DNA of 59,941 nucleotides, the filler included, from Globobulimina sp. (lineage: Eukaryota), in NCBI GenBank assembly GCA_003354225.1. It is 13 parts of 13 records of this genome, joined end to end, with 100 filler letters (N's around TTAATTAATTAA, not from the genome) between each part and the next. Parts side by side here need not be neighbours in the genome. Positions count along the whole stretch, not along the records: positions 13,879 to 18,401 come from PIVH01001167.1; 12 more parts are not named here. The stretch is one strand, 5' to 3'. This document shows, one piece after another, positions 483 through 41,595 of the stretch. The notes below the pieces were generated by a model that worked only from the letters and a program-made list of their open reading frames with translations, made no database searches and was not told the DNA's origin. Made by a program: the position numbers and the translations under genes. The stretch's first letter is position 1, and each line of letters starts with the position of its first letter.

Positions 483-3400
483 TTAAGACGGAATAGATAT
501 TTCTGATCCACGGCCAGTATTTTCTTGTTGATCCTCACCATCTTTTTTAATTTCATTTGGTTTTGTTTGATTTGTATCTTTATTTGCAATGCCAACAGGA
601 CCAATAAGTGATAAAATAACAGGTAAATATAATACAGCATAGCAAGCACCAAACATCATTGTTAATGATAAACACTTCCAAAATGATGTAAATATCACAC
701 TCTTTGAATTTGCCAAAGGAATCAGCGCCACGATTGTCGACATATCACCCGCCAATATTGGCATACCGACGCTATTCAACGCAAATATGACACGCATATT
801 ACGTTCCTGTTGCTTTGTTAATGATTTTGGGATATTTCTAATCGGCGCATTCATAAAAGCATGACAAATATGGGCAGCATTGTCAACGCTAAATCCAACA
901 CTAATTATAACACTGACCATCGCCACAGTGTTAATGGGCAAACCCCACAACGACATATAACCTAAAACGCCAAATAATATTTGGCCAACCGTTGTCATCA
1001 CAAAAATAGTCATCTGAGGATATGGAATCAATATAAGTGTAACAAAACATGCTGCAATCATCGCATAAGCTAAATTGCGAATTGTTTGTTGTATTGTTAC
1101 TAAGTCAGCCTCTGCCGCCGCTGCGTAATAACAATAATAATATGCGCCTAAATCTTTATAATTGGAAACTATTTTACTTTTGAAGTTATCCAAACAATCG
1201 GCCAGACCATCGGTACTCATCCCGGTTGGCACTAAACGCATAACAATCCGACTCGCATTTATATATTGATACGAATATGAACCAATTACATCCCTAGAAA
1301 ACGTCGATGATGATATTGCATGATTTGCATCGCCATCAATAACTATCGTATTCCATATATCATCAATGAATGCAAAGCCTTGTTCAGCCACTAAATATTC
1401 TGAATATAATACATTATAAAATAATGATGAATTTGTATTATTTCCATAATTATTTGATAAATACTGTCGATATGAATGAATCCACGACGATGTCAGATAT
1501 GGAGCTGACTCGAAACATTCATCCTTTTGGAGATCAAGCACCAACGCATTGATTCGGTTAAACACCGCATCGTCGCTGTAATCCAATGGTTTATCCAATA
1601 TAATATTTAATGGAGGTCCAATTTGATCAAAATAAGCTTCGTAACTTTGGAAATATTTAGTCAAATACGAGTCAGCTGGCAGTAAATCAGCACCATCCAC
1701 CGAAGCATATAAAGTCGTAACACCAACAGTGGCACCAACTAAATAACCAACAAATAATAATAAAATTAATATTTTTACCTTCACCGAACCTAATATTAAG
1801 TGTGCGAATTTCTTCATGATTATCGATGCGGACTCATTATTGATCATATATGATAATAGAACATTGATATCATTCACATCATTATCAACAGTCTCGACTT
1901 GAAGCTCTTTCTCATTCTTATCAATGTCGAATGAATTTGTGACTTGTTCGTTTTCTGTTTTCTTTTTGCCGCAAACACAACAAATACAGCAAGTGTCTGG
2001 TCTCGAATCATAGACCATCATTGCAAGAAAAAAAGTGACTTGAAATACAAAATCCTGTTATTTTTAATTTTATAAATATAAAAAAATATATAATATGTGA
2101 TAATGAATGTGGATAATCTATTTATAACATACCAAGAATACACCCACGCCGCAGTATAAACAAAATGCAGAAACACCACCAAACGAAGACGTAGCACCAA
2201 TGCAAAACGCAATTAAATCTGTAAAGGATGTGAAGAATATGGAGATTCCGCCTCGTTCCATTGTTAAAGCAATCCTCTCTGTAATTGAATCTTTTGGATT
2301 TGTCAATTCGTACGCTCGGATTAACACAAACATATCATCCACTATTTATAGGTAAAAAAAACAAGTTCACACAACAGTACATTTGCAGTGTATACAATTT
2401 ACAAACCTCCTAAACCCATCAACAAAAAAGGACTGAACGCAACGATGGCATTCCATTTCACGCCAAAAAAGCCACCAACCACACCAAATGAACTAAAGAT
2501 GGCGCATAATGTGGATATTATGCCCATTATACTTAACTGTGATCTATTTCTCAGCGGATCCATTTTATAGCCTTTTCCTGACATATTCCTCTTGAATCTC
2601 ATCAATATGAATGAAGCAAACACAGCAATCAATATAAAAGATATTGCAAATAATGGTGCATCTCGGGATAAATTACGAGCTAATTCCAAATCGAATGAGC
2701 CCTCTGCAGCGAAAGTTATATCAAATAATGGATTGTAATTATTTTCTTGCTGTAGGAGAGAGATATATTTACCTTCCCAATCTGCCAATAATTCGTCATT
2801 AAACAATATATTATCCAATACATAATGCGCTCTGAAAGCTGGAGTTGCAGTGATATGTTTATTGAGGTCATAGGATATGCCTTGTCCTAAAATTTCAACC
2901 ATCAGCACATAATCGTCACTGTAATCAGAAAAATGTGATGGGAATATTATAGGACTTTCAGTTGTGTTAAATGTCTCGTTTATAAGTGTTTGGTTAAAAT
3001 CATAAAATTGCAGAACTGAGATAATCACACAATTTCCATTTGTGTGTCGATAGCATAAATCACCAAATCTGTACGTATCTCCTTTATGTTTTACTTGTAT
3101 GCCGGTAATCAAGTTATGGATTCTTAAGAATTCACTCAAATATTCAACTGTGAATATGTTTTCTTGTGATGCTAAATCTTTATTGTTGTTTGCAGTGACT
3201 TGGACGCTTTGGCCACTAATTTTATTGTGTACGGCCCAGGTTTTGTCGAAACGTTGATAGTAATCATATGTCAATGTATTCTTTGGCACATATAATTCCA
3301 ACGTATCACTTTCAGTCTGGATAAATAACATTCCACTGACCATAATTGCAGTTGCTATTAATGACGCTATAATTACTGCCAACGGATGTGCTGCCGCGAA

Positions 3401-3487
3401 ATATCCCCATTTTCTAAATGTAATTATTAAATAATGCTCAATCACTGACATTTGGCGGTGCCAACAACGAGTGCAAGTGTCTCCCAT
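483..3487 (-). CDS. Patched/NPC1-family (PTCHD-like) sterol-sensing-domain RND membrane protein, 3 exons
   Basis: GT-AG introns at 2342-2406 and 2055-2132 join three ORFs and restore the SSD motifs MGLGVDDMF and GISIFFTSFTDLIAF; the second half has SVGFSVDNAAH and many TM segments. Confidence 0.9.
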
Positions 3488-10322: not shown

Positions 10323-11665
10323 ATGAGAAGTCCTCAGTCTTTACAAATGTCAGATCCAAAACACAGAGAACGCAGACAACAATCACAGAATGTATTTATG
10401 AAATCATTTGTTCGTGATGATCATTTGGTAGACCGTTCATTTTGGTCACGTATCAACAAAATAAATTGCATGATTGTATTTGGTGTACCATTATTCGCAT
10501 TGTATGGTTTATGTACCACTCAAACAATTGTATGGCAAACATGGCTATGGTCAATTGTCTATTATTTTTGGACTGGATTGGGTATCACAGGAGGGTATCA
10601 TCGGTTGTGGTCACATAAATCATATTCTGCAACAAGTGCATTGCAATTATTTTTATTGATTGGTGGGACAGGTGCATTGCAAGGGAGTGTTAAATGGTGG
10701 AGCTTATTACATCGTGCACATCACAGATGGACAGATACAGATACAGATAATGATCCTTATAATATTCAAAGAGGTTTGTCCTACTGCCCTTTATTTTGTG
10801 TCTTAATAATAATAATATGAATATAATAATAGGTTTCTGGTATGCACATGTTGGATGGTTGTTATTTGATAGCATTAAAGTAAACGGACATGTCAATATT
10901 AAAGATTTAAAATCAAATTCATTTGTTAGATGGCAACATCAAAATTATGGATGGTTTGGTCCATTTATGGCATTTATATTTCCTGCGATTATCGCATATT
11001 ATTTTTGGGGTGATTTTAGAGGTGGACTTTACATTGCTGGCGGTTTAAGATTATTTTTTGTGCATCATGCAACATGGTTTGTAAACTCATTAGCCCATTA
11101 CATGGGTAGGCAAACATTTGATGACACGATTTCACCTCGTGATTCTATAATAACAGCTTTGTTAACATTAGGTGAAGGATATCATAATTTTCATCATGAA
11201 TTTCCACATGATTATCGTAATGGTGTTAAATGGTATGATTATGATCCCACAAAATGGTTCATATACAGTATGAAATTAATGGGTTTAGCATATAATTTAA
11301 ATGAATTTCCACAAAATGAAATTATTAAAGGTGAAATTGATATGATTGAAAAACAAATCAATGAAACAAAACAAAAGATTAATTATGGGATTCCAATAAA
11401 TACATTACCAATTTGGACAAAGGAAACATTAAAATTGGAAATGAAGGATGCGAAAAAAGCAAAAAAAATATATATTATATTTTCTGATATCGTTTATGAT
11501 TGTACAGAATTTGTTAAGAATGGTAAACATCCAGGTGGGAAATTAATTATTATACAAAGACATGGAAAAGATATCACTCATGATTTTAATGGACATGTTT
11601 ATAATCATACGAATGCAGCAAGAAATTTAATGTCACATATGAGAATTGCCAGGGTTTGTAATTAA
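10323..11665 (+). CDS. OLE1: Acyl-CoA delta-9 desaturase with C-terminal cytochrome b5 (OLE1-type), 2 exons
   Basis: His boxes HRLWSH, HRAHH and HNFHH; FVNSLAH; DYRNG...YDPTKW; b5 motif HPGG and HVYNHTNAARNL. Intron 10774-10832 restores RGFWYAH. Confidence 0.95.
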
Positions 11666-14738: not shown

Positions 14739-15764
14739 ATGCCAATTGTATTCAAGAAACACTTTGGAGATAGTGATGATGATAAAGATTTAGATTTATT
14801 TTTAGAACAACCACCAAAAAAAAAAAGAAAACTAAACAATGAAAAATGTCAACCAATAAACCTGTCAGCAAAAACTGAGAGAAATAAAAAAGATGAAAGT
14901 AAAGGTACATTAACAAAATTACGACTTAAAAGAACAAAAAAAAGAGTAGCGAATTTCCAAGAATTTAATCCACGATTAGTAAATAATAAAAATAATAAAA
15001 GTAAAAAAAATAAAAATCCAATCATTTCATTTGAATCAATAAAACCAAATCACATCGCAATCTCATTTCAAACATTATTTTTGAAAACATTTAAAACCAC
15101 AACAGAAGATCTTGGATTTAAATTTAAACCCTCTCATTTTGTAGAAGTAACCACTAAAAATACACCGCGTGGATCATTGGATATTTTGCAACATTTTTTA
15201 AGGAATTATTTTAGTAATACGGTACAGGACAATGATACTGAGGAAAATCCCGAAAATTTGAAAAAATCAAAAGAATGGATTGCATGCACAAAATCTATGC
15301 AAGTAATGGTTATTTCCCCATCCGTTCGAAAAGCAGTTGATACCATAAAAGCATTACGAACTGTTAAGGTCAAACATTCATTTGTTCATAAAAAAGAGTT
15401 AAACAAAATGAGTGTGGAAGAGTATGAAGAATATGAACAAAATAAAGATGAAAACGTAGCCGTGATTGGATTGCGAGTATGTGAGTTATTTGGGAAGCAT
15501 CGAACAATTAAATTTCAAAAAAACGAATTAATAAATAAATCATGGCATTGCGGGGTTGGTGGAATAAATCGAATAAATAAATTATTTCAATCAAAACATT
15601 TAACATTAAAGAAATGTGAATTAATTGTCATTGATTTACAAAGAAATGTAAAAACTATGTCTATTCTTGATATGAAGCAAGTTTGTAAAGAATTATGTCA
15701 ATGGTTACAGGAATATGCATTTACACGAATCAACAATAAACATACTAAAATTGCATTCTTTTGA
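14739..15764 (+). CDS. CMSS1: Cms1/CMSS1-like 90S pre-ribosome factor (degenerate helicase-like fold)
   Basis: Lys-rich N-terminus, then VISPSVRKAVD, ELFGKHRTIKFQ, GVGGINRINKL and LIVID...VKTMSILDM, resembling the Cms1 LFAKH / GVGTPGR pattern. Confidence 0.75.
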   Translation: MPIVFKKHFGDSDDDKDLDLFLEQPPKKKRKLNNEKCQPINLSAKTERNKKDESKGTLTKLRLKRTKKRVANFQEFNPRLVNNKNNKSKKNKNPIISFESIKPNHIAISFQTLFLKTFKTTTEDLGFKFKPSHFVEVTTKNTPRGSLDILQHFLRNYFSNTVQDNDTEENPENLKKSKEWIACTKSMQVMVISPSVRKAVDTIKALRTVKVKHSFVHKKELNKMSVEEYEEYEQNKDENVAVIGLRVCELFGKHRTIKFQKNELINKSWHCGVGGINRINKLFQSKHLTLKKCELIVIDLQRNVKTMSILDMKQVCKELCQWLQEYAFTRINNKHTKIAFF

Positions 15765-15912
15765 TTTCTCTCATTACATTCTTTTCAGTTTAACTGACCA
15801 CTCGTTGATTTATTATAAAATTTTTGCTTTTATCAGGATTTGTTCGGATTTATGTAATCACCTAAAATTACACAAAAATAATTCAAAAACACACAAAAAA
15901 AATCTATTTTGC

Positions 15913-17526
15913 TCAAATTGCACCAAATACTTTCTCAAATTGACATACAAACTTATCCATTGTTTGTTTTTTTTTATGATCCAAAATAGCAAACACAACT
16001 TTCCTGAATACATTACAATATCGATTCTTCAACAAATCCGCAAATATCATCGCCACCATATTTGGTTTATTACCGAATACGCCGCAACCCCATGCACCCA
16101 GAACCACGCATTCATTGTCATGTTTCATTGCTAATTCTAACACACGTTTACATCTTTCTGTCATGACATGTTTTACAACATTCCATGCTCCACTTTTCCT
16201 TTGTTCTTCATCAACATTTTCATTTTTATTCTCATCCAATTTGCCATCATCGCCATATTTCTTCCTCATTGCTCGTTTAACATACATTCCAGCATTGACC
16301 GCTGGAGATGTAATAATGTCACATTTATAATATCCATTCTCAAATTGTTTAATCTGTACACCATTGCCATGTTTCATAACCACAATATCCGGACTATATA
16401 TTAAAGCATGTGAGTATAACATTGTTTTCTTTTGTTTTCTGTGATAATCATAAAATTGCCGTTGGTATTTAAGTAAAGTGGGAATCAATGTGGATGACCG
16501 CGCAATGCTCTCTTCCTGAGCCACCGCCCCTGTGTCCCACCCACCGCCCGGATTTTTGGCAGAGGAGAAATTTAACACACAAATATTTATACAGTCTCCA
16601 TATTGCAATCTTAATCTATATGCACAGTCCAATGTTGTTTCGTGATTTATTGATATCTCCATTCTCGGATATTTGCGGAGTTTATGATGGTCGATGTCGA
16701 TATATTTAAATTCATCTTTCTCTAAATATAACTCACTGTGCGCATCGCTAAAAGACATATCGTTTTTAATATTTGTTTTTTCATTCGTTTTGGGATGAAT
16801 AAAACATTGATTTTCAAGAATTTGTTTGGTTTTATTGGCAATGATTTTATATTCCTTTCGTTTTAATTTTGTATGTAATTGCGGCTCTTGAATTATTCGC
16901 CGTTTATTGTGATTTAAGGTGACATTATTACCATTTAAATCTGTGTTAAATATCAATAATAATTCATTCAACATTGCAATGGTTTGGTTAGTTTGTGATT
17001 TTCCATCATCTTTCCCGTCGTCAATGTTTTCAAATTCTTGTTTGTTATCTCGTTCATTGCTGTTCTCCGGATCGTTTCTTTGTGATTTCGGAATATTTGC
17101 AATGTCTGTTTCAAATAATAATGAACGCAAAGATTGAGTGTTTCGGTTTGTTTCTCCTGAACAATATAATCTGTCTAATTTTGATTGTTTGTCCCAAATT
17201 ATAATCTTTTGAGCATCAAATAAGTATAATACGAAATAATTGATTTTATGCATTGGAATATCACCTCCATCATCAATCATTACCCAATCTAAAAATGGCA
17301 TTTCTGCAATGTTTTCACGATCCAGATAGCCGATGGAAACATAATTTAAATCAATCCCGATGTTTGGATCATGGATTAAGCGTTTATAGACATCATACGA
17401 TGTTCGCAATTTCTTTTTCTTTTTCTTGGTTGATGAATTCATTGAATTGTCATCATTATTTTGCGACTGATAATCAGGTTTCACATAGCGTTTATGCTTT
17501 GAAGTAGTTTTCTTTTTACGCGGCAT
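15913..17526 (-). CDS. Fusion of an MJ1316/DUF504 RNA-repair domain and a bacterial-type PARG (TIGR02452/DUF2263 macrodomain)
   Basis: N-terminal RTSYDVYKRLIHDP...IGYLDR...DIPMHKINYF...IIWDKQSKLD; C-terminal VLNFSSAKNPGGG...GAVAQEESIARSS, IYSPD, DIITSPA and VLGAWGCGVFGN. Likely ATG at 17526 (MPRKKK). Confidence 0.85.
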   Translation of the reverse strand: MPRKKKTTSKHKRYVKPDYQSQNNDDNSMNSSTKKKKKKLRTSYDVYKRLIHDPNIGIDLNYVSIGYLDRENIAEMPFLDWVMIDDGGDIPMHKINYFVLYLFDAQKIIIWDKQSKLDRLYCSGETNRNTQSLRSLLFETDIANIPKSQRNDPENSNERDNKQEFENIDDGKDDGKSQTNQTIAMLNELLLIFNTDLNGNNVTLNHNKRRIIQEPQLHTKLKRKEYKIIANKTKQILENQCFIHPKTNEKTNIKNDMSFSDAHSELYLEKDEFKYIDIDHHKLRKYPRMEISINHETTLDCAYRLRLQYGDCINICVLNFSSAKNPGGGWDTGAVAQEESIARSSTLIPTLLKYQRQFYDYHRKQKKTMLYSHALIYSPDIVVMKHGNGVQIKQFENGYYKCDIITSPAVNAGMYVKRAMRKKYGDDGKLDENKNENVDEEQRKSGAWNVVKHVMTERCKRVLELAMKHDNECVVLGAWGCGVFGNKPNMVAMIFADLLKNRYCNVFRKVVFAILDHKKKQTMDKFVCQFEKVFGAI

Positions 17527-17606
17527 AATAAGATATTGTCTTGCTAACTGAATATGGAAACAACAAAAGTGAGAATGTGGATGGAATGTGAAACAAATGA
17601 AGGCAC

Positions 17607-18401
17607 TCAAAAACTATCCCACATAAATGACAAAACGTTTGTAAAAAGCAAAGCAATTATAAAATTGCAAATACTTGATCTGTCAATTTCAATTCCTATT
17701 AATTGATAACAACATGAATATTTTTTCATCAAATACTTTAATCTGTTCAATATCTCTAAAGCACATTCTTGTTTGCTATGCAATATGATACTTTTACACA
17801 ACACATCCATATCAATATCCACATTATTTTCCTTTTCTTTTCGTATAATTGCATTCATTAAATTATTTAAAATCAAATCAGAATGGAAATGCAAACGTGT
17901 TTTTAGTATTTTATTTAATTTCTCGTTTATAATCCGTACTTTTAACGTATTTACCTTTTCCGTCATTAACATGGCTGGCCATAATACAAACATTGCCATT
18001 AATAAATATATCAATGCTTCAATACTATTATAAACAATCCAAGCTCCATTATTTGTAGCATCTGTATCATATGGATGCATATATATTGATACCGTATGCC
18101 AACATGCCATAATCATTTGTAACAATAAATTTATAATCCACAAATAAAATAACTGACAATAGGTCGCAATTTTTTTGTTCATAAACACATATTTTTCACA
18201 CAAACCTGCATCAATTATGTCATCATTTGAGGTCATTGATTCAATTTGATTGACAAATATTTTTGCATACAAATAACACTCCGTAAAATATAATCTTGCT
18301 ACAATGGCCATTAATAAATCTGGAATTATTATGGTGACAATAAACACAGTCGCTTGAATCACAATAAATGCAATCCATAAAATATATGAAATGCGGTTGA
18401 A
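17607..18401 (-). CDS. Multi-pass membrane protein, C-terminal part; possible gustatory-receptor-like (7TM ion channel/DUF3537) protein
   Basis: Several TM helices, a long loop before the last helix, and the ending YQLIGIEIDRSSICNFIIALLF. Confidence 0.45.
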   Translation of the reverse strand, partial: FNRISYILWIAFIVIQATVFIVTIIIPDLLMAIVARLYFTECYLYAKIFVNQIESMTSNDDIIDAGLCEKYVFMNKKIATYCQLFYLWIINLLLQMIMACWHTVSIYMHPYDTDATNNGAWIVYNSIEALIYLLMAMFVLWPAMLMTEKVNTLKVRIINEKLNKILKTRLHFHSDLILNNLMNAIIRKEKENNVDIDMDVLCKSIILHSKQECALEILNRLKYLMKKYSCCYQLIGIEIDRSSICNFIIALLFTNVLSFMWDSF

Positions 18402-27742: not shown

Positions 27743-30700
27743 ACAAAAATATGGTATAATTGAGTTATCGACATGTTGTGAGTTGGACACGTACAGCAAT
27801 TCATATTGCAATACAACATCATTAGACACGAATTTATATATTTTATATGAAAAAAAAGGACAAATTAATTTGTTAGAGACATCAGACGATGTAGATCCAG
27901 AAATATGTCAAAACGAACACAAATCGTTTCTAAATTTGGTTAATTATCCCAATGGACTATACATTATTGCTGTTGGTGGCTATGCTCAAGAAGCTGGGAA
28001 ATATCATCTAAAATTAAAATGTCAGAGCGATTCTTCAACCTATAATGGACCAGTAACAAATGAGTGGTTTAGAGAACAAATTATTTTAATACCAGAATTA
28101 CCAGAATTAGCCTGTGTTTTTTTTGATTGGGAGTTTGATTTCAATGCCACAACAATGGATGATGGGGTAAAAGTGGCCAATCAGTTTGCAACATCGACAG
28201 ATGCATACGATTTAGTAAAATATTATATGTTGAATATTACCACAGAAATGAAGCAAACGTTCAGCTCATCGTTATTTATAACAACTTGTTGCGCTTTTGA
28301 TGCTTGCGAGGCCTTATTTAGCCAATATACTACATTGTATGGACAAGATCTAAATAATACGGCGCTCGATGAATGTGATGAAAGCTTGTTTGAAGTTCTT
28401 ATCTGGGGCCAAAATGGGTTTTCATATCAAGATCATTGTACATCTGACTCAGTAGATACATATTTATATATTTTGCAAGAAAAACGGGGACAATTTAATT
28501 TGGTTGAAGCTGTAGATGACACTGTCAGCTGTAGCAACACACAGAAATCACAGATTGATTTATCAACCTATGAGGAAGGTGTGTACGTTGTCGCAGTTGG
28601 AGGATATGGAAAGGATTATGGGTCATTTTTTCTTCAGATTGACTGTATTCAATACTCCTGGCCAATGCCTGAAGATCAGGTTAATCCAACTAGTTCCAGT
28701 GCATTGTACTGCAATCAGTCGCTACCTAATGAGCTGACTACAGAGCAAAGACATGTTTCATATTACGATCTAAACATAACAGCAGATACGTACCCTCCAA
28801 TTGTCATAGTAACCCAACTTACCCAAGGTACCAATGTCGATGTTTATGTATTTAAATTGACGGACAATAAATATGAAATGCGATGTAGTAACTATACTTA
28901 CGATCCATTGTGTTATGTATATTATATGTACAATGATAGTGATACTATGGTGACTGAAATTTATCCGAGAAACGTAACAGATTTTGGTACGTATACTGTT
29001 GTGGTGCAAGGTATTTTTAACCTTCCCGTGGATTATTCCATCAGTACGATGTGCGGTGATCCTCCGACATATTCACCATCAAATGTACCTACTTTCCATC
29101 CCACTGTAGACCCAACGAGAGCACCTACGGCAACACCAACACCTGCACCAACTCTACGATATTCATGGCCAATTAAAAAAGCAGAATTTCTTATTCCAGA
29201 TAATGCACTTACATTAACATGCAATCAAAGGATCTCTAATCAGAGTGATACTGCCAACCATTTAGCTTCATATTATAGATGCAGGATTGTTTCAGAAATA
29301 GCACCAAGGTTTGTATCGACCTGTCCTGCTACGGAAACAATCGACGATACAACCTCAATATATGACACGTACATGTACATAATACAAGATTATGGAGACA
29401 TTATCACTGTTTTGGATGAATCTGATATAGCTTCATGTGATGACAAATCAGCAGAAATTGATATTAGTTCGTACAGCATTGGTGAATATGTGGCGGTTGT
29501 CCAAGGTTACGAGAACGCGTTGGGTAATTTTTCGATAGTCATGCAATGTACTGAGCCATTACCAAAAGTGTCCCGACAATTTGTGATGTCATTGGTATTT
29601 GGTTTATGCGGTTTGACTACAGTTTTATTTGTGGTGTATTACTGTTATCGGTGGAGAGAATATATCCGAAATAAACCAAAAATGCAAAAGAAAACGACAG
29701 CTCGTTCGCATACATTGCTTGCTCAAGAAGCAGATTCTGAATCTGACGGCGCAGCGAATGAAACAAATGTATCCAGCACAGAATTACAGCCAATTTCCAT
29801 ACAAACGCAGGAACTTAAAGACGAAAATGATGCGAATATTTTTGAAAACGCAGAAACGATACATTTCCATCACTCGCGTTTCAGTGAGTTGAAAATACGC
29901 CTATTTGATAACGATCGCAGCGTCGTGGAGCAGTTACATAAGGATGAAGATGTGGTGCAACTGGTATTGGCTCATGCGATACAATGTTGTGAGGACCAAC
30001 AAGGTGTCGATGTGTATCAATTACTGGCCATTCAATATTACGATCCAGAATCAAGAAATGTGCGCGGAGTGCGACCGTTTTATGCGATAGGGATTAACAC
30101 TGAATTCATTGTACTCTCACCCTTCTTCCAAACAGTATGGATTGGCAGTGTTTGTGCATTGGCGCAAACAATGGGTATTTCAATTGTTGTTTATAAGTTA
30201 TTCTATGCATATTTTGAACAATCTGAAGGATTTACAGCGGAGATCTGCGTAATGGATGCAATGAGATGGCGTAACGTATATTCACTTAAGATGTTATCGT
30301 TTTTATTGTCAATGGTGATCACTTTTTATATCGGCATTGTATTAACCAATATCCAGCACGCCGGTTTGTATGAGAGTTTGAGTCGTTTGGAGCCAAAACA
30401 TATGACTCGGATCAATGAAAAACACGAAGCGCATGAATTCCAAGCAGATAATCATAAAATTTGGTTAGGCGCATTATTTATTGGCCAGACCATCAATTAC
30501 TATGTATGTTTATTGGCGGTGATTGGCTCATATTTTATTATATTTTCGTCGAATAAAGGAGACCAATCGGAAGGTAACAAAATTGATTATTCAGACGCTG
30601 GATTGGATATGATTTTAAATGCGGTGGCATTGTTTTTTATGTTGGATTTGGACAATATGATGGTATCTGTACAGAATTATAATGATTGTAAGCAGCATTT

Positions 30701-30926
30701 GGAAGGGATTTTGGATGTTTATGCCGTGAATGAAGCAATAAATAAGGATTATGATAAAACCTATATTGACACTCATTGTCGATGTGTATGTGAATGTAAG
30801 TATAACAAAAAAACGTGTTGCTTAAATTCCGCATATAGGTTGGTTGCTATATTTTCCTTATTTGTTAAAATATGTTGTTATGGGGGTGGATTTGTAGCAC
30901 CCTTTGTTATATTTTTTTGTTGGTAA
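27743..30926 (+). CDS. Large receptor-like membrane protein: repeated PPC-like beta-sandwich ectodomains, PT stalk, TM, cytoplasmic linker, multi-TM C-terminal domain (5'-truncated)
   Basis: The pattern DTYLYIL...DD..C..KS.IDL...G.Y.VAVGGY...G.F.L...C recurs about four times; PTYSPSNVPTFHPTVDPT; C-terminal helices with DMILNAVALFFMLDLDN. Confidence 0.8.
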
Positions 30927-31001
30927 ACATTATTAGTATCAATTAATAATTTTTTAATTTTAAAAAAAACATTTTTGAAGTTCCGACACGAAAACTTGAC
31001 A

Positions 31002-32262
31002 ATGAGCTACAAGCCAAGAAAATCAGAGTTAAAAGAACTACAACAGCTTAAAGTACAGTTAAATATTTATCAAAAGAAAATTAACGGACAAAATGAGAAA
31101 TTAAAAAAAGCAAAAGAAAAGCTCGAAGCAGGCATGTTACATTAATTTGATTCGTATATTTTACATCAATATGTTCCACCAAATATTCAGAAAATAAAAA
31201 AATAACAATTGAAAGAAGAGAATTAGAAAAAGAAAGATTGCGATTTGAAAGAGACAAAACTTTGCAAGAAAAACAACTGTCAGCCAATTCCATGAGGAAT
31301 AACCGTTCAGGTTCTTCATCTTCGTCGTTACACAAAAATGTAAAATCAAGACAAGAATTTATGGAAATATCAAGAAAATATGAGAAAGAATGCAAAAAAT
31401 CATTAGATTTACAAAAGCAATTCGATGCGACAGCTGCTCAAAATAATGTATTAATGATCAAAGTGAAACATTTATCAGAATCTCTCAAAAAAAAAAGAGA
31501 GGACGATATCGATCCTCGTTTAAGACAGCTAAACATTGAAAACCGCGATTTACGAAAAAAACTAAAAGCAATGTTTACTACAATTAACAGTGAAAAAAGA
31601 TGGTACATTCGTTCTATTCAAATATTTAAAGACAATCAAAATAAATGGATTGAAAAACAACGAACTTTGTTTAAAGATAAAAAATTGATCATAAAATACG
31701 TTTTTTTGGATGATATTAAATCCATTAAACAATATAAAAAGGCACAGATCGATTCAAATAAACTGGAGTTTAAAAACGGAGTCACATTTAAAATGAGAAA
31801 CGGTGCAGAAACCACAAAAAAAGGTATACAAATTATAGTATCGGAGGAAAAAAAAGATGAAAACTGCGAGGATTTAATGGAGGATAAGTTAATGGATGAA
31901 TTAATGGCAGAGTTTGAAACAAATGACGATGAATATATGGAGGAAAATATGGACGCAAATATTGGAGCAAATCTGGCGGAAAATATGGACACAAACATCG
32001 GAGCACATATGGAGGGAAATATTAACAGTGGACAGTGGTTATTGAGTCAGAGTGCCACGGAAGAGGTGGATGAGAATGATGAGGTGGCGGAGTTACAGAA
32101 ACGTTTGGATGTGTTACAGAAACAGATTGAATCAAAAGATATTATGATTGGCGAAATGAAGAATAAGGAGGAGTTTAAAGAAGAACATAGTGCACAACAA
32201 AGGAAAGAGCTGAAAAAGAAACGTATGAGGAATAAATTGAATATTGTAATCTTACAGAAATT
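31002..32262 (+). CDS. Coiled-coil protein with a GC-AG first intron (3'-truncated)
   Basis: ATG at 31002; intron 31132-31190 (AG/GCATGT...TTCAG/) joins KLEA-ENKKITIERRELEKERLRFE in frame with ORF 31238; Lys/Glu heptads and a 12-aa repeat MEENMDANIGAN. Confidence 0.75.
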
Positions 32263-32362
32263 NNNNNNNNNNNNNNNNNNNNNNNNNNNNNNNNNNNNNN
32301 NNNNNNTTAATTAATTAANNNNNNNNNNNNNNNNNNNNNNNNNNNNNNNNNNNNNNNNNNNN

Positions 32363-35300
32363 CGGTAAACATGCCATTTCCTGCTGCTGAAGACATTGTT
32401 CAAAATGCTGAAATTTACGCTTCAAGATACAATCAGCATAGACACAGCCATACATGTTGGAAAAATAATAGGCCTAAATGTCGTATGGCCATGCGGCAGC
32501 CACAAACACCTGTTACATTCTTTACTGAAATTCATGAAACTTGTGATGGTGAACCAGTTCGGAAATTTCCTGGAAGTGGTCCTGGACATGAGATCATTTC
32601 AAATCCTCCGAATCGCGGTGATGGGAATATTTTTTCAGTACCAGATCGTCGTATAATTGTAGGTAGATTGGCTAGGCGTGACGAATGGGAACAAAAAACA
32701 GTAGAATTTAGCCCTGTTACAACTGCGTGTGTTCGTTGTAACACTTCCATACAAATTTTGATGAGTGAAAGCCAAGGAAAGTCTGCAACATTTTATTGTG
32801 CGAAATACATGAGCAAGACATTATATCCACTGCAAAAAATGCTTCCGTTATTAAAGCAAGCTGAAGAGGAAAACAGAAAATATGGCTCGAAAGCTATAGA
32901 TGATGGTGCACCAACAAGAAAAGCTAAGAATATTTTGCAGAAACTCGTTAACAAATCAGGTTTAATCGAAATATCAGATCAACAAGCAGCAGCTGGTGTC
33001 ATGAATTATCCGTCAGCTCTATCAAGTCATAAATTCTGTTTCGTATATCCTTTCGATGCAATCAAACACTATAATAAAGGAAACAACGACCAACCAAACG
33101 ACTCTGATGAAGAAATTACAGCATACTTGGAATGTGAGACAGATACTGGAAATGCTGTAGCCATTTCGAATTTTGAAAAGTATAGGAGTCGTGGAAAGCA
33201 ATTAGAAAGATTGTGTCAATTTGATTATTTTGCAAGAATCCAAATTCGGACCCCAAGTAAACGAAAGTCAAAAAAAGCAAATAAAAGTTCAGTCGGCAGA
33301 AAAGCAAATAAGATTTTTCCTTTTGAAACAGATTCTAAGGCATCCAAATGTTTAGAACAAATCATTAGCTCGGTTCCAAGAATACCTCGGATAGCTGGCA
33401 AACAGAAACCACCTAAATATCCAGGTAACAAACCACATGAAAGAGAAGAGAGACTGTCATGGAATGGTGATGCCAAAACATTTGTTGAGTTTTATACATT
33501 TTTGTTCTTACCACTTGATAAGAACGGAGAACCATTGGAACCATATGATAATATTTTGCCATGGAATGAAATAAGCTCATGGGACAATTTTTGGGTTGTG
33601 TTTAACGATTTTGAAGGTTCAAATTATTGGTATGAGCGTGCAAAATTTGGAATTTTTCAAAATATGGTTAATAACATGCGTCAATCTGATTATGAGAGAT
33701 CGGAGCAAAGATTGCGATGTACCTACTGTCCAGACAAATAAGAGAAAGCAGACAATTGAAACCGGTGAAATTGAAAGTCATGACGATCTAGATGCACTTG
33801 TTCAACAAATACGGATCAAATATGGTGATGATGGAGAATTATCTGTAAAAGAAAAAAACCTTAAAAAGGCAAATAGATTCTTAGGAGACCAAATGGAACG
33901 ATATGAGGATCTTGCAAAGACAGAAAGCAGACGTTTTCAAGCTTCAATGTTCAAAAAATTCACAATGGACGATTGTAAACAAATGTTAAAAGGAGATTAC
34001 ATTGAATTTAAGGAAGAAGATATTAAACATTATGATGAAGATGGAAAAATGCAAGAAAATGCGAAACAAGTTACAGATGATAAACAGATTTTATTGCGTG
34101 ATTTTCAAAAAAAAGTTGTTGACCAATTACAAGAAATGAAAAAACAGAAGGACCCTATGCCTGGCAAGAAAGACTATCAACTATTAGCATTCATTCAAGG
34201 TATACCTGGATCTGGTAAAACAACAACTGCATCTGTATTAGCAGATTATTTAGGCATGAGTGTTTTGTTTTCTGGGACAACAGGAACTGCTGCTGCGGAA
34301 TTAAAAGCTGATGTGATTAACACACTTCTCAAATTGGGAAAAAATTATAAAGATTTTGATGATACAAAAAAGGTGGCGTACTCAAAGAAACAACATATAA
34401 TGGGTGCTTTGCAAAATATCGATTTATTAGTTATTGATGAGGTAAGTATGTTAACTCCAACTACTTTAGCAAAAATTGATAAACATTTACGAGAAACTTT
34501 CGATGCGGAATATTGTTTTGGTGGAAAAGATATCTTACTAATTGGGGACATGTTTCAATTTCCGCCTGTTGATAAAGGTTTAACAAATCCGGCATTATAT
34601 CAAGCTGCTGTTATGTTGGGACTGGGTTTACGGATGCCTAATCAACGCTTTAGCAATGGTGCGTCTTTATTTGTGATGTTTAAAAGAGTTATTTTGGATG
34701 GACAAGTTCGAGCGACACAGGAATTTGATAAATGGTTAGGAAGATTAAGAAACACAAAAATTGAATATCCAATTACCAAAGAATGGTTATCGCATTTTCG
34801 AACTTTGACACGAGAAGATTTTAAAAATAAAGAGATTGACTGGACCAGCACTGGAATAGTTGTTTCTACAAATATTGAAAGAAGAAAATTCATGGCAAAG
34901 AAGATTATTGATTATGGAATTAAATTCAATCAACCTATCTTACGTTGGATATGTCCTGTAAAAACAGGAAAAAGTGGCAACAGAAACGTATATGGACAGC
35001 TTCCTTTTGATCCTTCAGAGCATGGCTCAGGTTGGTTCGATGAGTTGATTCGATACTATGCACGCGGAGCAGCATGTGTTTTGACAGAGACCATCGATAC
35101 AAAATCAGGTTTAGGGAAAGCAACAAATGGAACTTATATTGATGTTATTTGGAAAGAAGATGGATCAGATGAAGCAGTGCCTCGTTTAGACGATATGCCT
35201 ACTGGTGAAGTAACCACTGTCAGGCAACCAGATTATATTATTATTAAAGTTAAGAAAAAATACATTGCCATTAAATTAACAGGTAGATCAATGAAAGATG

Positions 35301-36879
35301 AAGCTGGTACAGATCGAACTTATTTACAACATAATTGTGAACTATCAATTTCTGTTACTTATCACAAAATGCAAGGCAAAACAGTAGGATCAACATGTTT
35401 ATCACTGAATGCAAGACGTGGAATATGCAGCAAAATTCTTCCTACTTCATTGCCCAGCCTATATGTTGGATGCAGTCGGGTTAAAGGGTTTCCGAATCTA
35501 CGAAGGCTTCCTATGAGCAAAGAAGATGAAGAAGCATTGATGAAATTAAAATGGCATCCTTATTTACCTATTTGGTATGACAATTATGATGAAAATGGAA
35601 AATGGAAGACAAATGGATTAAAAAAACATAGACAAGATTTTGTTAGAACACACATGATCAAACTTGGTATCATAGATTTGCAAGCATTGACAATAGAAGA
35701 GGCTCGAAAATTTACTAAACACTTGGATTTGATTGTGGATTCGAAATCAACTTACATTAGTCGTGCAGTGTATCTCAAATCTTTGAAAGAGACACATGTT
35801 AAAGCAAGAAAATTAGTGTGTGAAAACAATCGGGAATTATTAATAAAAGAGCGAGCTAAAGTTATGAAAGATTTACTTACAAATCGGATTGGTAAACTAG
35901 ACGCCAAAACTGCAAGGTATTTCGCTAAAAGATTAGGAATAAATGATAGTAATAAGATGGGCAAAGCTCATGTGATTGCGGCACTACAAGAATTGGTTAG
36001 GGGAAAGGATAACTCACTACAAGAATTTGTTAAAGCTCGCAAAAACAGAAAGAGAAAAGCTGAAGATACACATCAGAGTAGTAAACATCCAAAAAAAAGA
36101 ATAAAGAGATCTGATAAAGAGGAAATGTCTGATGAAGAGATGACACCAAAGAAACAATTTGAGAATAAACAGGAAAACAATCGTCCTGCAAAACAAAACA
36201 GAACCTCCCCGCGGTTGCAAGAACAAAGACAGAGGAAATTAATGCGGTTGCAAGAACAAACACAGAGTTTGCAAGAAAAAAGACAGAGGAATTTAATGCG
36301 GTTGCAAGAACAAAGACAGAGGAATTTAATTTTAGCTACTTTTCCAAATTCTTACAATGCCTGTTGGATGGAAGCAACTGTTGAGATATTTTATCGAGCA
36401 TTCAAAATGTTACCCAGAATGCGGAGGTTAATGATGAAAATGAAAGATGAAGGATCTTACAATAAATTGTTGGTGGAAACATTCGAACAGCGACAAAATT
36501 TGGAGGACCTGGAAATTCCAATCAATCAATTTAAAGAATGGTTAAGAAGGGAAAAAATAAAATTAGTGAACCCTATTTGGTTGGCAGATAAATTTTTTCG
36601 TGATAAAAATGGATATATGGAATACAAACAGGCTACAGTTCCTACATTTTTCGCACATTGGTTAGATAGGAATGGAATTTCTACATTTAACAAGGATGAA
36701 GTTTTTGGTTATAAAAAAATGAGATGCCAGAATTGTAGCAACGCGGGAATAAATCCACCGAGAGAGTTTCATTATCCAGACATTCCTCTGACGCGTAAAT
36801 ATTTTACAGAGACGATGAGTACAGTGGTGTATCGGATAAGATGCAGACGCTATGACCACTTTTTCAATATGACCACTTT
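32363..36879 (+). mobile_element. Helitron-type rolling-circle transposon Rep-helicase ORF (partial; one frame break near 33700)
   Basis: Rep motifs QHRHSHTCWK...CR, RCNTSIQIL, FYCAKYMSK (YxxKY catalytic tyrosines) and EISDQQAA...SSHKF. PIF1/SF1B motifs GIPGSGKTT, LLVIDEVSML, FGGKDILLIGDMFQFPPV, QVR, TYHKMQGKT and YVGCSRVK. No introns seen. Confidence 0.9.
36211..36330 (+). repeat. Coding tandem repeat of about 33 bp (RLQEQRQRNLM)
   Basis: GCGGTTGCAAGAACAAAGACAGAGGAA.TTAAT, three to four copies, one shortened. Confidence 0.85.
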
Positions 36880-36979
36880 NNNNNNNNNNNNNNNNNNNNN
36901 NNNNNNNNNNNNNNNNNNNNNNNTTAATTAATTAANNNNNNNNNNNNNNNNNNNNNNNNNNNNNNNNNNNNNNNNNNNN

Positions 36980-39900: not shown

Positions 39901-41300
39901 GAATACCAAACTGTTCGCCGCATTGCAAACGCAACACTTTCTCCAATCGCTCCCGAATCGGCAAAGAAGACACCATTTTCTTATCAATATCGTACTGGAA
40001 CTTATTGCCACGCAAATTGAGACTCGCCTCGTTCTGCAAACGCGTAAACGTCGCGGAATATTTCTTGATTTTCTTGTATTTTACGATATGTTCCCGGGGC
40101 AGACACGTATTCACATCAATTAAGCTCGTATGGTTGCTCAATAACTGCAGGTACTCAATCAAACAGTGCTGCGGTATCTTGTTATTGGAGACCTTCAGCG
40201 CGCGGATAAAGGTCCGGTTATATGACAACGAGCTGATTAACAGTCCGATATGTTTATCATTGAACTTATTATTGGACAAATCTATAAATTTGAGGTTGGA
40301 TAGATACGCAATGCCGGATAAGAAGGGTTCCAATCCCAGCGACAAATCGTTGGTATTCATGATCAACCGCTCCAATTTCGTCGCTCTTCCACACAAATTC
40401 GCCAATGAATGGCCTAAGATGTTGGGGCCGGTAACCACCGCTTTCTTGCTGTCTTCCTTTGCTTTCTTCTGTTTGCTTTTCAGTTTGTTCTTCTTCCCAA
40501 TAATGCCGCTGCCAAAATTATTGTTTCTGAAAATGTTTTGTTTGCTGATATTGTCGCTGATATTGAGCGATTCCAAACAAATACAACAATGCAAATTGTT
40601 TAAGATGTTCGACAGGGTCATACTATCGAAATTATTGCCCGCCAACGACAATGACACAATGGTGTAATTACCAATGTTGCCGCCAAGCAATCGATACTGC
40701 AACAACTGACATATAATATGGCTGCCTTTGGCCGCTAAGTTATTGTAACTTAAATCCAATGTCAAGCGCATCAACTCGCGACATTGTATAATGTCACAAC
40801 GTGTCGGTCGGTACGCTAGCAACACATTGTTGTTCTGCGACTGGTGCTGTGTGATACTCGTTGGTTTGGTGTGTTTGCGTGACATGAAATGCAACGACGA
40901 GGCACTCACACTGGCATTGGCAGTGCTGATGGGCGCAGTGCTCGGATCCGCCGCACAGTGCTCCTCGACACTGGTATCGGACTTTTCATCCTCGTCTTCT
41001 TCCTCAAGCACAAGCTCTTGGTCCTCCTCCTCCGCATTGTCTGTTATGTATTGTAAGCCCGAGTTGTTCGCCAACGCGCCTTCGAATATTTTATGCAACT
41101 GCTCACTGGACATATTGCATCGGGACAACTTCAGACACTGCAAAGCCTGCGCCCGTTGCACAAAATTGCTCAGTTTGCGAGCACCGTGATCTCCGATCAA
41201 ATTGCCACTGAAATCCAAGTACAATAAGCACTGCAAATGGTGCTTAATCCCGATGTTGTTATAGTTGTTAATGTGCAATCCGTTGAAGAATATGTTGCCA
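36980..41300 (-). CDS. Multidomain protein: RI-like LRRs, RhoGAP, unnamed helical domain, ADP-ribosyltransferase-like domain (both ends incomplete)
   Basis: LRRs LYLDFSGNLIGDHGA, LTLDLSYNNL and LKFIDLSNNKF. RhoGAP IPKIL...EIFRFS...AIKAFYHDLP...NKMNSRSMAVVLCPSL. ART-like region AVLLYCD...LYHS...PMSC...GIIFAL...FNCNWISDYANYDEKIIFG. Confidence 0.8.
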
Positions 41301-41304
41301 CATG

Positions 41305-41424
41305 AATAATACCATAATAAATACCCATAATAAATAATAATAATACCCATAATAAATACCATAATATACATATAAGAATACCATAATAAATAATCCAATA
41401 AATACCATAATAAATACCAAATAA
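41305..41424. repeat. Degenerate tandem repeat CCATAATAAATA
   Basis: About seven imperfect copies; produces the spurious YLLWY start of the 1488-aa ORF. Confidence 0.85.
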
Positions 41425-41429
41425 TTTGT

Positions 41430-41495
41430 TGGGGCTGCCTCAGGCTTTGAACCTGAATCTTCTGGATATATCTATCCAGTGCTCTACTTGAGCTA
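41430..41495 (-). ncRNA. tRNA-like element (pseudo-tRNA or tRNA-derived SINE head), 5' end cut by the contig end
   Basis: - strand: TAGCTCAAGTAGAGC (D arm/A box), CTGGA-TAGATATA-TCCAG (anticodon-like arm, 8-nt loop), TCAGG-TTCAAAG-CCTGA (T arm/B box), GGCAGCCCCA. Confidence 0.65.
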
Positions 41496-41595
41496 NNNNN
41501 NNNNNNNNNNNNNNNNNNNNNNNNNNNNNNNNNNNNNNNTTAATTAATTAANNNNNNNNNNNNNNNNNNNNNNNNNNNNNNNNNNNNNNNNNNNN

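What the first reader, a model, noticed from the sequence alone, without database searches (positions are those of the whole stretch)
15913..17526. MJ1316 RNA-end-recognition domain fused to a bacterial-type PARG
Seen: one uninterrupted ORF with an NLS-like start, an MJ1316/DUF504-like module at about 17155-17410 (DVxxRLxxDP, IGYLDR, DIPxHKIxYF, IWDKxxxLD), an acidic linker, and a TIGR02452/DUF2263 PARG with an intact GGG-x6-QEE catalytic loop and GAWGCGVF. Established: MJ1316 domains occur in RNA-repair proteins (with 2H phosphoesterases and nucleotidyltransferases) and are predicted to bind damaged RNA ends; bacterial-type PARGs remove ADP-ribose from proteins and nucleic acids. Inference: an enzyme that is targeted to RNA ends and removes ADP-ribose from them, linking RNA repair and ADP-ribosylation. 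I do not recall this pairing being described.
Basis: partly seen in the sequence, partly recalled or inferred. Interest (0 to 1): 0.78.

Follow-up and report, generated by a model that had tools for sequence, protein, structure and literature searches.

The report
MJ1316 domain fused to bacterial-type PARG
A single intact gene joins a predicted RNA-end-sensing domain to a bacterial-type enzyme that strips ADP-ribose, a rare pairing found so far only in foraminifera-like protists, which suggests clean-up of ADP-ribose marks on RNA.

Summary
Window 15913-17526 (-) is one open frame of 537 aa. Pfam finds MJ1316 (residues 41-113, 32.4 bits, cut-off 26.3) and microbial-type PARG (124.5 bits); TIGR02452 scores 203.8 bits. 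The catalytic signature is GGG-x7-QEE, not x6, and the GAWGCGVFGN loop matches T. curvata PARG. The model superposes on 3SIG (TM 0.89).

The fusion is real. Full-length relatives of 58-62% identity exist, one from a foraminiferal transcriptome, and contigs of other runs bridge the linker.

It is rare: 4 of 120 listed homologues, and 1 of the 150 best representatives among 1.84 billion proteins. All named ones are foraminiferal; none carries an NCBI or UniRef record.

The same N-terminal module is joined in this lineage to NMNAT-like, cpYpsA-SLOG, NUDIX, DUF6939-like, PhyH-like and exonuclease domains. Elsewhere PARG is fused to Tpt1, cREC, RNase T and RapZ-C.

Most likely function, inferred not shown: an ADP-ribosyl hydrolase tethered to RNA. 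I rate it a new variant of known kinds, of moderate interest.

The parts
15913..17526 (-). Whole gene: single-exon ORF, 537 aa plus stop
   Evidence: The first four residues MPRK are invariant in 7 of 7 aligned relatives. No joints were seen in the laid contigs (table 5).
17407..17526 (-). Basic N-terminal tail, residues 1-40 (14 K/R), with a conserved MPRK...KPDY.SQN motif. NLS-like, untested.
   Evidence: Modelled as disordered: pLDDT below 50 for residues 1-3, 16-26 and 28-32.
17188..17406 (-). MJ1316 domain (PF04457), residues 41-113: one helix and four strands
   Evidence: 32.4 bits, cut-off 26.3. Searches give the model, pLDDT about 90 over this range. R49 and H93 are invariant in 34 aligned MJ1316 proteins.
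17092..17187 (-). Conserved continuation of the N-module, residues 114-145 (KLDRL..SG.T motif plus short helices)
   Evidence: D118 and S123 nearly invariant
16984..17091 (-). Acidic disordered linker, residues 146-181
   Evidence: 10 D/E of 36. (pLDDT below 50 for residues 153-162 and 164-180). It varies in length among relatives. A 3-base in-frame insertion lies here in two related contigs.
16948..16983 (-). Conserved amphipathic helix, residues 182-193 (TIAMLNELLLIF). It travels with the N-module even in relatives whose catalytic domain is not PARG.
15916..16947 (-). Bacterial-type PARG: N-terminal extension plus macro-fold catalytic domain, residues 194-537
   Evidence: Foldseek against 3sij and 3sig, E about 1e-24, TM 0.89 on the target.
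16510..16548 (-). PARG signature GGG-x7-QEE, residues 327-339. E338 and E339 are the catalytic glutamates.
   Evidence: In the alignment, E339 aligns with the residue mutated in the 3sij E115A chain.
16075..16098 (-). Diphosphate-binding loop GAWGCGVF(GN), residues 477-484
   Evidence: identical to T. curvata PARG
16171..16290 (-). Lineage-specific charged insert in the PARG domain, residues 413-452
   Evidence: a gap between the two matched stretches. (pLDDT 60-66 over about residues 421-440). An 18-base in-frame deletion lies here in related contigs.

Best explanation
This is a real, intact, single-exon eukaryotic gene, probably from a foraminiferan or a close rhizarian.

The protein has five parts in order:
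- a basic, NLS-like tail;
- an MJ1316 domain;
- a disordered acidic tether;
- a short conserved helix;
- a catalytically complete bacterial-type PARG.

Proposed mechanism. The N-terminal module brings the enzyme to RNA, either to damaged or processed ends (2',3'-cyclic phosphate or phosphate ends) or to the machinery that handles them. The flexibly tethered PARG domain then cleaves the bond at C1'' of an ADP-ribose attached to that RNA. The attachment could be on a terminal phosphate, as Tpt1-type transferases make, or on a ribose 2'-OH. Free ADP-ribose and clean RNA are released.

Shown here: the domain identities, the intact catalytic motifs, the fold, the reality of the fusion, and its rarity.

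Inferred: RNA targeting, the substrate, and nuclear location.

The gene is one member of a lineage-specific set in which the same N-module is joined to other enzymes, most of them from families that handle NAD, ADP-ribose or nucleotides.
For: Domains:
- MJ1316 scores 32.4 bits (cut-off 26.3) and PF10021 scores 124.5 bits. TIGR02452 scores 203.8 bits.
- phmmer against T. curvata PARG 3sig gives E 4e-30, with GGG..QEE and LGAWGCGVFGN conserved.
- The full model has mean pLDDT 85.6. Foldseek to 3sij/3sig gives E about 1e-24 and TM 0.89.
- A profile of the N-module retrieves classical MJ1316 proteins fused to 2H, EEP, PAP and tRNA-ligase CPD domains. R49 and H93 are invariant in 34 sequences.

The fusion is real:
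- P0002, P0003 and P0004 align over 99-100% of the query at 58-62% identity.
- P0004 comes from a Nonionella stella transcriptome.
- Contigs from three other runs, about 95% identical, bridge the linker. The longest spans 15982-17409. Their only indels are 18 and 3 bases, both in frame and both in disordered parts.

Biochemistry of the family (passages of PMC11833690):
- Bacterial-type PARGs SCO0909 and DRB0099 remove ADP-ribose from RNA 2'-OH and from 5'-phosphate ends.
- The D. radiodurans PARG sits in an operon with a ligase and a PNKP-like kinase/phosphatase.

Independent fusions of PARG to RNA-end domains among the 150 best representatives:
- Tpt1/KptA (P0238)
- cREC cyclic-phosphate REC domain (P0065)
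- RNase_T exonuclease (P0197, P0227)
- RapZ C-terminal domain (P0226)

Other domains joined to the same N-module:
- NMNAT-like (P0010, P0204)
- cpYpsA SLOG (P0144)
- NUDIX (P0266, P0267)
- CCCH plus RNase_T (P0265)
- PhyH-like (P0260)
- DUF6939-like (P0263)
Against: - No result here shows RNA binding or a substrate.
- The MJ1316 model has no convincing structural relative in the PDB. The best Foldseek E is 0.33 and the best VIA Z is 4.8. The fold therefore gives no independent support for nucleic-acid binding.
- The MJ1316 score is only about 6 bits above threshold.
- Bacterial-type PARGs also hydrolyse protein-linked poly(ADP-ribose) (passage of PMC8120803), so a protein substrate is equally compatible with the catalytic domain.
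- One divergent foraminiferal relative, P0126, keeps PARG but has lost the GGDIPMH motif of the N-module. The module is therefore not indispensable.
- PARG-only relatives exist (P0009, P0011), though some may be truncated records.
- The runs that bridge the linker are RNA only by the tool's guess.
Confidence: 0.55

Rival explanations
1. It is a protein-directed PAR/MAR hydrolase of the nucleus. The PARG domain turns over poly- or mono-ADP-ribose on proteins, as in the DNA-damage response. The MJ1316 module only localises or regulates it, for example by binding RNA, PAR (itself a ribose-phosphate polymer) or a partner protein.
For: - Bacterial-type PARGs hydrolyse PAR in vitro (passage of PMC8120803).
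- The catalytic motifs are the same ones used for PAR hydrolysis.
- The basic NLS-like tail fits a nuclear enzyme.
- The canonical PARG profile PF05028 is only sub-threshold here (15.1 bits against 26.3). This protein could therefore be the cell's working PARG. That could not be checked, because no genome is held.
Against: - In this lineage the same N-module also carries NUDIX, exonuclease, NMNAT-like and SLOG domains. These are hard to read as protein-PAR enzymes.
- Elsewhere PARG recurs fused to RNA-end enzymes: Tpt1, cREC, RNase_T and RapZ_C.
Confidence: 0.25
2. It is a metabolite-clearing enzyme of the Tpt1 pathway. [quoted passage not shown] The macro-fold domain then processes this by-product of RNA 2'-phosphate removal.
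For: - Pfam names MJ1316 a 'cyclic group end recognition domain'.
- PARG is fused to Tpt1/KptA (P0238) and to the cyclic-phosphate-processing REC domain (P0065) in other lineages.
Against: - The PARG signature residues catalyse glycosidic cleavage at C1'' (passage of PMC8120803), not phosphoester hydrolysis.
- No 2H or phosphatase domain is present in this protein.
- By my recollection only, ADP-ribose-1''-phosphate phosphatase activity belongs to MacroD/Poa1-type macrodomains, not to PARGs.
Confidence: 0.15
3. It is an artefact or a dead gene: two neighbouring genes read through by chance, an assembly chimera, or a pseudogene.
For: The organism's own RNA was not shown, and no listed run is on record as RNA. 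The exact protein is not in the 15-billion collection.
Against: - The frame is 537 codons long and open.
- The architecture is colinear in P0002, P0003 and P0004, which come from different sources.
- Contigs from four runs in three studies cover the junction with only in-frame indels.
- The catalytic and domain-core residues are conserved.
Confidence: 0.03

Closest known systems
Bacterial-type (microbial) PARG, DUF2263 / PF10021 / TIGR02452, e.g. Thermomonospora curvata PARG (3SIG) and Deinococcus radiodurans DRB0099 (5ZDA)
   Same: - The GGG-x7-QEE signature and the GAWGCGVFGN loop are the same.
- The fold is the same: TM 0.89 on 3sij/3sig and 0.82-0.84 on the 5zd* chains.
- The family has shown activity on PAR and on ADP-ribosylated RNA and DNA ends.
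   Different: - This is a eukaryotic gene with about 195 extra N-terminal residues: basic tail, MJ1316, acidic tether and helix.
- It has a 40-residue charged insert at residues 413-452.
- Sequence identity to the solved enzymes is only about 30%.
- The status of the ribose cap was not examined.
Classical eukaryotic MJ1316 fusion proteins: MJ1316 with 2H phosphoesterase (AKAP7_NLS, 2_5_RNA_ligase2), EEP, PAP-type nucleotidyltransferase, tRNA-ligase CPD, RWD or CCCH
   Same: - The domain is homologous. The N-module profile finds these proteins at E 6e-13 to 1e-2.
- R49 and H93 are conserved.
- The logic is the same: a small N-terminal recognition domain attached to an RNA-end-processing enzyme (passage of PMC6514570).
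   Different: - The catalytic partner here is an ADP-ribosyl glycohydrolase, not a phosphoesterase, nuclease or nucleotidyltransferase.
- None of the 19 hits from P0272 down, which include all the classical-type fusions, carries PF10021.
Other PARG fusions to RNA-linked domains: Tpt1/KptA-PARG (P0238), cREC-PARG (P0065), PARG-RNase_T (P0197, P0227), PARG-RapZ_C (P0226), PARG-NADAR (P0109)
   Same: They show the same theme: a microbial-type PARG physically coupled to a domain that acts on or binds RNA ends or ADP-ribose derivatives.
   Different: The partner domains differ. These records are unnamed contigs of unknown taxon, and none has MJ1316.
Canonical eukaryotic PARG (PF05028 plus accessory domain)
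   Same: The macro-fold core and the catalytic QEE chemistry are shared. Weak Foldseek hits to mouse and Tetrahymena PARG have E about 1e-4.
   Different: PF05028 scores only 15.1 bits against a cut-off of 26.3, and no accessory domain is present. This protein is not a member.

Membership tests
Microbial-type PARG (PF10021 / TIGR02452) | Profile match above the curated cut-off | tested here: met
   PF10021 scores 124.5 bits against 23.5. TIGR02452 scores 203.8 bits against 50.
Microbial-type PARG (PF10021 / TIGR02452) | PARG signature GGG-X6-8-QEE with both glutamates | tested here: met
   GGGWDTGAVAQEE at residues 327-339. It aligns with the T. curvata signature. The definition of the signature was read in PMC8120803.
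Microbial-type PARG (PF10021 / TIGR02452) | Diphosphate-binding glycine-rich loop | tested here: met
   LGAWGCGVFGN is identical to that of 3sig.
Microbial-type PARG (PF10021 / TIGR02452) | Macro fold with an N-terminal helical extension | tested here: met
   For the predicted model, Foldseek to 3sij/3sig gives E about 1e-24 and TM 0.89 (target-normalised). For 5zd* the TM is 0.82-0.84. This rests on a prediction, not a solved structure.
Microbial-type PARG (PF10021 / TIGR02452) | ADP-ribosyl glycohydrolase activity, and exo versus endo mode (ribose cap) | not testable with these tools
   This needs an enzyme assay. The residue equivalent to the T. curvata ribose cap was not mapped.
MJ1316 domain (PF04457) | Profile match above the gathering score | tested here: met
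   32.4 bits against 26.3, E 1.6e-7, covering profile positions 2-75 of 75.
MJ1316 domain (PF04457) | Reciprocal retrieval of undisputed family members, and conserved core residues | tested here: met
   The N-module profile A2 finds proteins with MJ1316 plus 2H, EEP or PAP domains. Their own Pfam MJ1316 scores are 29-58 bits. R49 and H93 are invariant in 34 sequences.
MJ1316 domain (PF04457) | Recognition of RNA 2',3'-cyclic phosphate (or other RNA) ends | not testable with these tools
   This is stated in PMC6514570, which cites computational papers that are not held. No binding data were seen.
MJ1316 domain (PF04457) | Fold shared with a solved family member | tested here: inconclusive
   No PDB sequence relative was found. 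The best Foldseek E is 0.33 and the best VIA Z is 4.8. There appears to be no solved reference to compare with.
Canonical eukaryotic PARG (PF05028) | Profile match above the gathering score, plus the accessory domain | tested here: not met
   15.1 bits against 26.3, over 25 residues only.

The most novel reading that the evidence does not exclude
Foraminifera carry a modular 'MJ1316 toolkit'. One conserved N-terminal unit (basic tail, MJ1316, acidic tether, helix) has been shuffled onto at least seven catalytic domains. Five of them belong to families that handle NAD or ADP-ribose: bacterial-type PARG, NMNAT-like adenylyltransferase, NUDIX, cpYpsA-SLOG and a DUF6939 domain with NADAR links.

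This would imply that a free-living eukaryote runs an extensive system for writing, sensing and erasing ADP-ribose or NAD-derived marks or caps on RNA ends. The gene in this window would be that system's eraser.
Probability: 0.3. Interest if true: 0.75.

Novelty: new variant of a known kind. Interest (0 to 1): 0.55.

Why it matters
Activity of bacterial-type PARGs on ADP-ribosylated RNA was reported in 2025 (PMC11833690, passages read). That paper calls the physiological role of such PARGs unexplored.

A natural fusion of this PARG to a domain otherwise found on RNA-repair enzymes is genomic evidence that RNA is a physiological substrate, and that this holds in a eukaryote. It also gives a ready construct for testing what MJ1316 binds. 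I saw no experimental data on that.

The wider pattern points to a lineage where RNA-linked NAD and ADP-ribose chemistry may be unusually elaborate. There the same N-module is combined with NUDIX, NMNAT-like, SLOG, DUF6939, exonuclease and oxygenase domains.

If the enzyme turns out to act only on protein PAR, the finding reduces to a lineage-specific domain shuffle.

Tried and rejected
- **Earlier findings:** the store was not open.
- **Genome:** no whole genome is held for the window. Paralogues, Tpt1, PARPs and a canonical PARG in the same organism could not be looked for.
- **RNA evidence:** no RNA holder is listed among the sequencing runs. Three runs marked 'RNA?' are guesses. Their contigs bridge the linker, but parts without cover are not evidence.
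- **Literature searches:** 'MJ1316' with 'ADP-ribose' gave 0 papers. 'MJ1316' alone gave 2, 'DUF504' gave 1 and 'DUF2263' gave 7. 'PARG', 'Tpt1', 'cyclic phosphate' and 'fusion' together gave 2.
- **Papers read:** I read only passages of PMC6514570, PMC11833690, PMC8120803 and PMC7050489. None mentions MJ1316 joined to PARG.
- **Papers not held:** Burroughs and Aravind 2016 (PMC5062991, also tried by DOI) and Mazumder et al. 2002 (PMC137960) are not held. Prior description there cannot be excluded.
- **MJ1316 fold:** there is no PDB sequence match, no Foldseek match at E 0.001 or better, and the best VIA-wide Z is 4.8. This shows neither a new fold nor a known one.
- **ESM Atlas:** the whole protein gave only PARG clusters at score 0.82, a lead-level score.
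- **Viral and metagenome contigs:** the viral-contig scan gave 63 pattern matches and the metagenome-contig scan gave 107. None was confirmed by tblastn.
- **PADLOC:** no hit for this protein.
- **Giant-virus origin:** I considered this because of the compact spacing. I rejected it because the window holds split cellular genes with short introns and typical eukaryotic families: NPC1/Patched, G-alpha, RhoGAP, GPS/REJ, C2H2 and CMS1.
- **DUF6939-like partner:** its PDB search found nothing.
Full report
**1. The observation**

Window 15913-17526 on the minus strand is one uninterrupted frame of 537 codons plus a stop. The one correction is that the PARG signature is GGG-x7-QEE (residues 327-339), not x6. 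That is within the published GGG-X6-8-QEE definition (passage of PMC8120803).

Curated profiles confirm both domains:
- Pfam MJ1316 (PF04457) covers residues 41-113 and essentially the whole 75-position model. It scores 32.4 bits against a gathering score of 26.3, E 1.6e-7.
- Pfam PARG_cat_microb (PF10021) scores 124.5 bits.
- NCBIfam TIGR02452 scores 203.8 bits against a cut-off of 50.
- The canonical eukaryotic PARG model PF05028 stays below threshold, at 15.1 bits against 26.3.

**2. The PARG half**

phmmer against all PDB chains finds Thermomonospora curvata PARG (3sig, E 4e-30) and Deinococcus radiodurans PARG (5zda and related, E about 3e-28). The alignment shows NF.SA..PGGG...GA.AQEE conserved and the loop LGAWGCGVFGN identical. 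E339 aligns with the residue mutated in the E115A chain 3sij.

An AlphaFold2 model built on a 72-sequence alignment has mean pLDDT 85.6. Foldseek places it on 3sij/3sig at E about 1e-24 with TM 0.89 normalised on the target. It places it on the D. radiodurans enzyme with TM 0.82-0.84. Ordinary macrodomains and canonical PARGs follow far behind.

A 40-residue charged insert (residues 413-452) separates the two stretches matched to the bacterial enzymes.

**3. The MJ1316 half**

The Pfam score is modest, so I tested it reciprocally. I built a profile from ten N-terminal modules of this protein's relatives (alignment A2). Searching proteins longer than 259 residues gave 40 hits.

The hits include undisputed MJ1316 proteins fused to:
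- 2H phosphoesterases (2_5_RNA_ligase2, AKAP7_NLS)
- EEP nucleases
- the poly(A)-polymerase central domain
- the fungal tRNA-ligase CPD domain
- RWD domains and CCCH fingers

Examples come from Schistosoma and Acanthaster. The own Pfam MJ1316 scores of the seven non-foraminiferal hits that I scanned (P0269-P0274, plus P0266) are 29-58 bits.

In a 34-sequence alignment across these groups, R49 and H93 are invariant. D45, D53, G66, Y67, D69, P91, Y97, F98, W111, D118 and S123 are nearly so.

The domain models confidently as one helix and four strands (pLDDT about 90 over residues 41-120). It has no convincing relative among solved structures:
- no PDB sequence match
- best Foldseek E 0.33
- best VIA-align Z 4.8 against 48,161 chains

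Membership in the family is therefore established. The family's stated function, recognition of RNA 2',3'-cyclic ends (passage of PMC6514570), could not be checked.

**4. Is the fusion real?**

Three full-length relatives, P0002, P0003 and P0004, align over 99-100% of the query at 58-62% identity. They share the same order of parts. P0004 and the partial P0007 come from the EukProt transcriptome of the foraminiferan Nonionella stella.

Contigs of four public runs from three studies were laid on 15700-17750. In three runs that the tool guesses to be RNA, single contigs of about 95% identity bridge the linker:
- 15982-17409
- 16267-17247
- 16703-17443

No joints were reported. The only indels are 18 bases, inside the PARG insert, and 3 bases, inside the acidic linker. 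Both are in frame and both lie in poorly ordered parts of the model.

This supports one coding unit under selection. It does not prove transcription in the source organism, because no listed run is on record as RNA.

**5. How common is it?**

- Among the 120 listed of 842 word-indexed homologues, 4 carry both PF10021 and PF04457.
- An exhaustive phmmer scan of 1.84 billion cluster representatives gave 8031 hits at E 0.001 or better.
- I scanned all 150 best of these with Pfam. Exactly one, P0007, has both domains at E 0.01 or better.
- P0133 is a fragment of another fused gene: its match spans query residues 52-230.
- P0126, from Bolivina argentea, has PARG plus a degenerate N-module that has lost the GGDIPMH motif.
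- In the N-module search, 5 of 40 hits carry PF10021.

Every named source is a foraminiferal transcriptome. The rest are unnamed contigs, and none carries an NCBI, nr or UniRef record. Scans of viral and JGI metagenome contigs found no relative. The exact protein is not in the 15-billion collection.

**6. Context that bears on function**

*(a) The catalytic family acts on RNA.* Passages of PMC11833690 report three things. Bacterial-type PARGs SCO0909 and DRB0099, alone in a panel of hydrolases, reverse RhsP2-made 2'-OH RNA ADP-ribosylation. [quoted passage not shown] The D. radiodurans gene lies in an operon with a ligase and a PNKP-like protein.

*(b) PARG is repeatedly fused to RNA-end domains elsewhere.* Among the 150 best representatives are:
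- Tpt1/KptA-PARG (P0238)
- cREC 'cyclic-phosphate processing receiver'-PARG (P0065)
- PARG-RNase_T (P0197, P0227)
- PARG-RapZ_C (P0226)

P0109 combines PARG with NADAR.

*(c) The N-module moves as a unit in this lineage.* The unit comprises the MPRK... basic tail, MJ1316, the KLDRL..SG.T segment, a variable acidic linker and a short helix. It is attached to:

| Partner domain | Proteins |
|---|---|
| NMN/NaMN-adenylyltransferase-like (PF01467; TIGR00482 at 47 and 44.5 bits, below its cut-off of 112) | P0010; P0204 from Ammonia sp. |
| cpYpsA SLOG (PF12694, 57.9 bits) | P0144 |
| NUDIX | P0266, P0267 |
| CCCH finger plus RNase_T exonuclease | P0265 |
| PhyH-like oxygenase | P0266 by Pfam; P0260 at 36% identity to that region |
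| DUF6939-like | P0122, P0263 |

The DUF6939 assignment is only a lead. The Pfam score is sub-threshold, and the ESM-feature score is 0.93 to DUF6939 clusters, one of which also carries NADAR-DarT1 on 14% of its members.

Most of these partners belong to families that handle NAD, ADP-ribose or nucleotides, or that process RNA. This is what one expects if the N-module is a shared targeting device for nucleic-acid ends.

**7. Mechanism proposed**

The basic tail and MJ1316 module bind RNA ends or the RNA-end-processing machinery. The roughly 35-residue acidic tether (10 D/E of 36, disordered) lets the PARG domain reach an ADP-ribose attached to the same RNA. E338 and E339 catalyse cleavage at C1''. 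Free ADP-ribose is released and a ligatable or functional RNA end is restored.

Shown: the architecture, the intact motifs, the fold, and the rarity. Inferred: everything about targeting and substrate. I give this reading about 0.55.

Rivals:
- A nuclear protein-PAR/MAR hydrolase that uses the module only for localisation: 0.25.
- An artefact or pseudogene: 0.03.

**8. The organism and its surroundings**

The window is cellular eukaryotic DNA with 26-42% G+C. It is gene-dense, with short introns splitting several genes. It holds NPC1/Patched, a fatty-acid desaturase with cytochrome b5, G-alpha, RhoGAP, PIF1-like helicase, GPS/REJ, C2H2 fingers, guanylate kinase and a CMS1-like neighbour convergent with this gene.

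The nearest relatives of the protein are foraminiferal, so a foraminiferan or close rhizarian source is likely but not established.

**9. Comparison and novelty**

The protein is a member of the microbial-type PARG family and carries a member of the MJ1316 family. It is not a canonical eukaryotic PARG. The combination follows two known themes: MJ1316 attached to RNA-repair enzymes, and PARG coupled to RNA-end enzymes.

I did not find the combination described. The literature searches were made, and I read passages of four papers. The caveat is that the principal MJ1316 paper is not held, and its supplements could not be seen.

I rate it a new variant of a known kind, with interest 0.55. The bolder reading is a foraminiferal MJ1316 toolkit for ADP-ribose or NAD marks on RNA. 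That would deserve about 0.75 if true, and I give it about 0.3.

Noticed in passing
window 17248-17294: In all four laid runs this 47-base stretch has extra depth. It encodes the conserved W.MI..GGDIPMH core of MJ1316. Contigs diverge on both sides of it, with loose ends at 17248 and 17294. This suggests several paralogous genes carrying the N-module in the same samples.
   Followed up: partly
relatives P0010, P0204, P0144, P0122/P0263, P0260-P0262, P0265-P0267: There is a lineage-specific expansion. The same N-module (basic tail, MJ1316, acidic linker, helix) is fused to NMNAT-like, cpYpsA-SLOG, DUF6939-like, PhyH-like, CCCH plus RNase_T, and NUDIX domains.
   Followed up: partly
relatives P0238, P0065, P0197, P0227, P0226, P0109: Microbial-type PARG is fused to Tpt1/KptA, cREC, RNase_T, RapZ C-terminal and NADAR domains in unnamed contigs. 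These fusions were not mentioned in the paper passages I read.
   Followed up: no
relatives P0006 and P0008 (Nonionella stella transcriptome): These are variants of the fused protein. They keep the N-terminal tail and the PARG domain, but an RGG-rich, low-complexity segment replaces the MJ1316 core. They could be an alternative isoform, a paralogue or an assembly chimera.
   Followed up: no
window 28155-36931 (+): Four consecutive long ORFs lie on one strand (923, 340, 456 and 1099 aa). The last has a PIF1-like helicase domain and the other three have no Pfam match. This may be a Helitron-like or other mobile unit.
   Followed up: no
window 38001-44000: G+C rises to 0.40-0.42 against about 0.31-0.35 elsewhere. 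The rise lies over a 1479-aa RhoGAP ORF and two unassigned ORFs.
   Followed up: no
window 47236-50672 (+): A cluster of ORFs shows PT-repeat, REJ and GPS motifs. It looks like the exons of one polycystin- or adhesion-GPCR-like gene.
   Followed up: no
window 483-3487 (-), 10323-11665 (+), 55627-57573 (-): Three genes are split across adjacent or overlapping ORFs: NPC1/Patched-like, fatty-acid desaturase with cytochrome b5, and an MFS transporter. This indicates short introns or frame changes, in contrast to the intron-free PARG gene.
   Followed up: no
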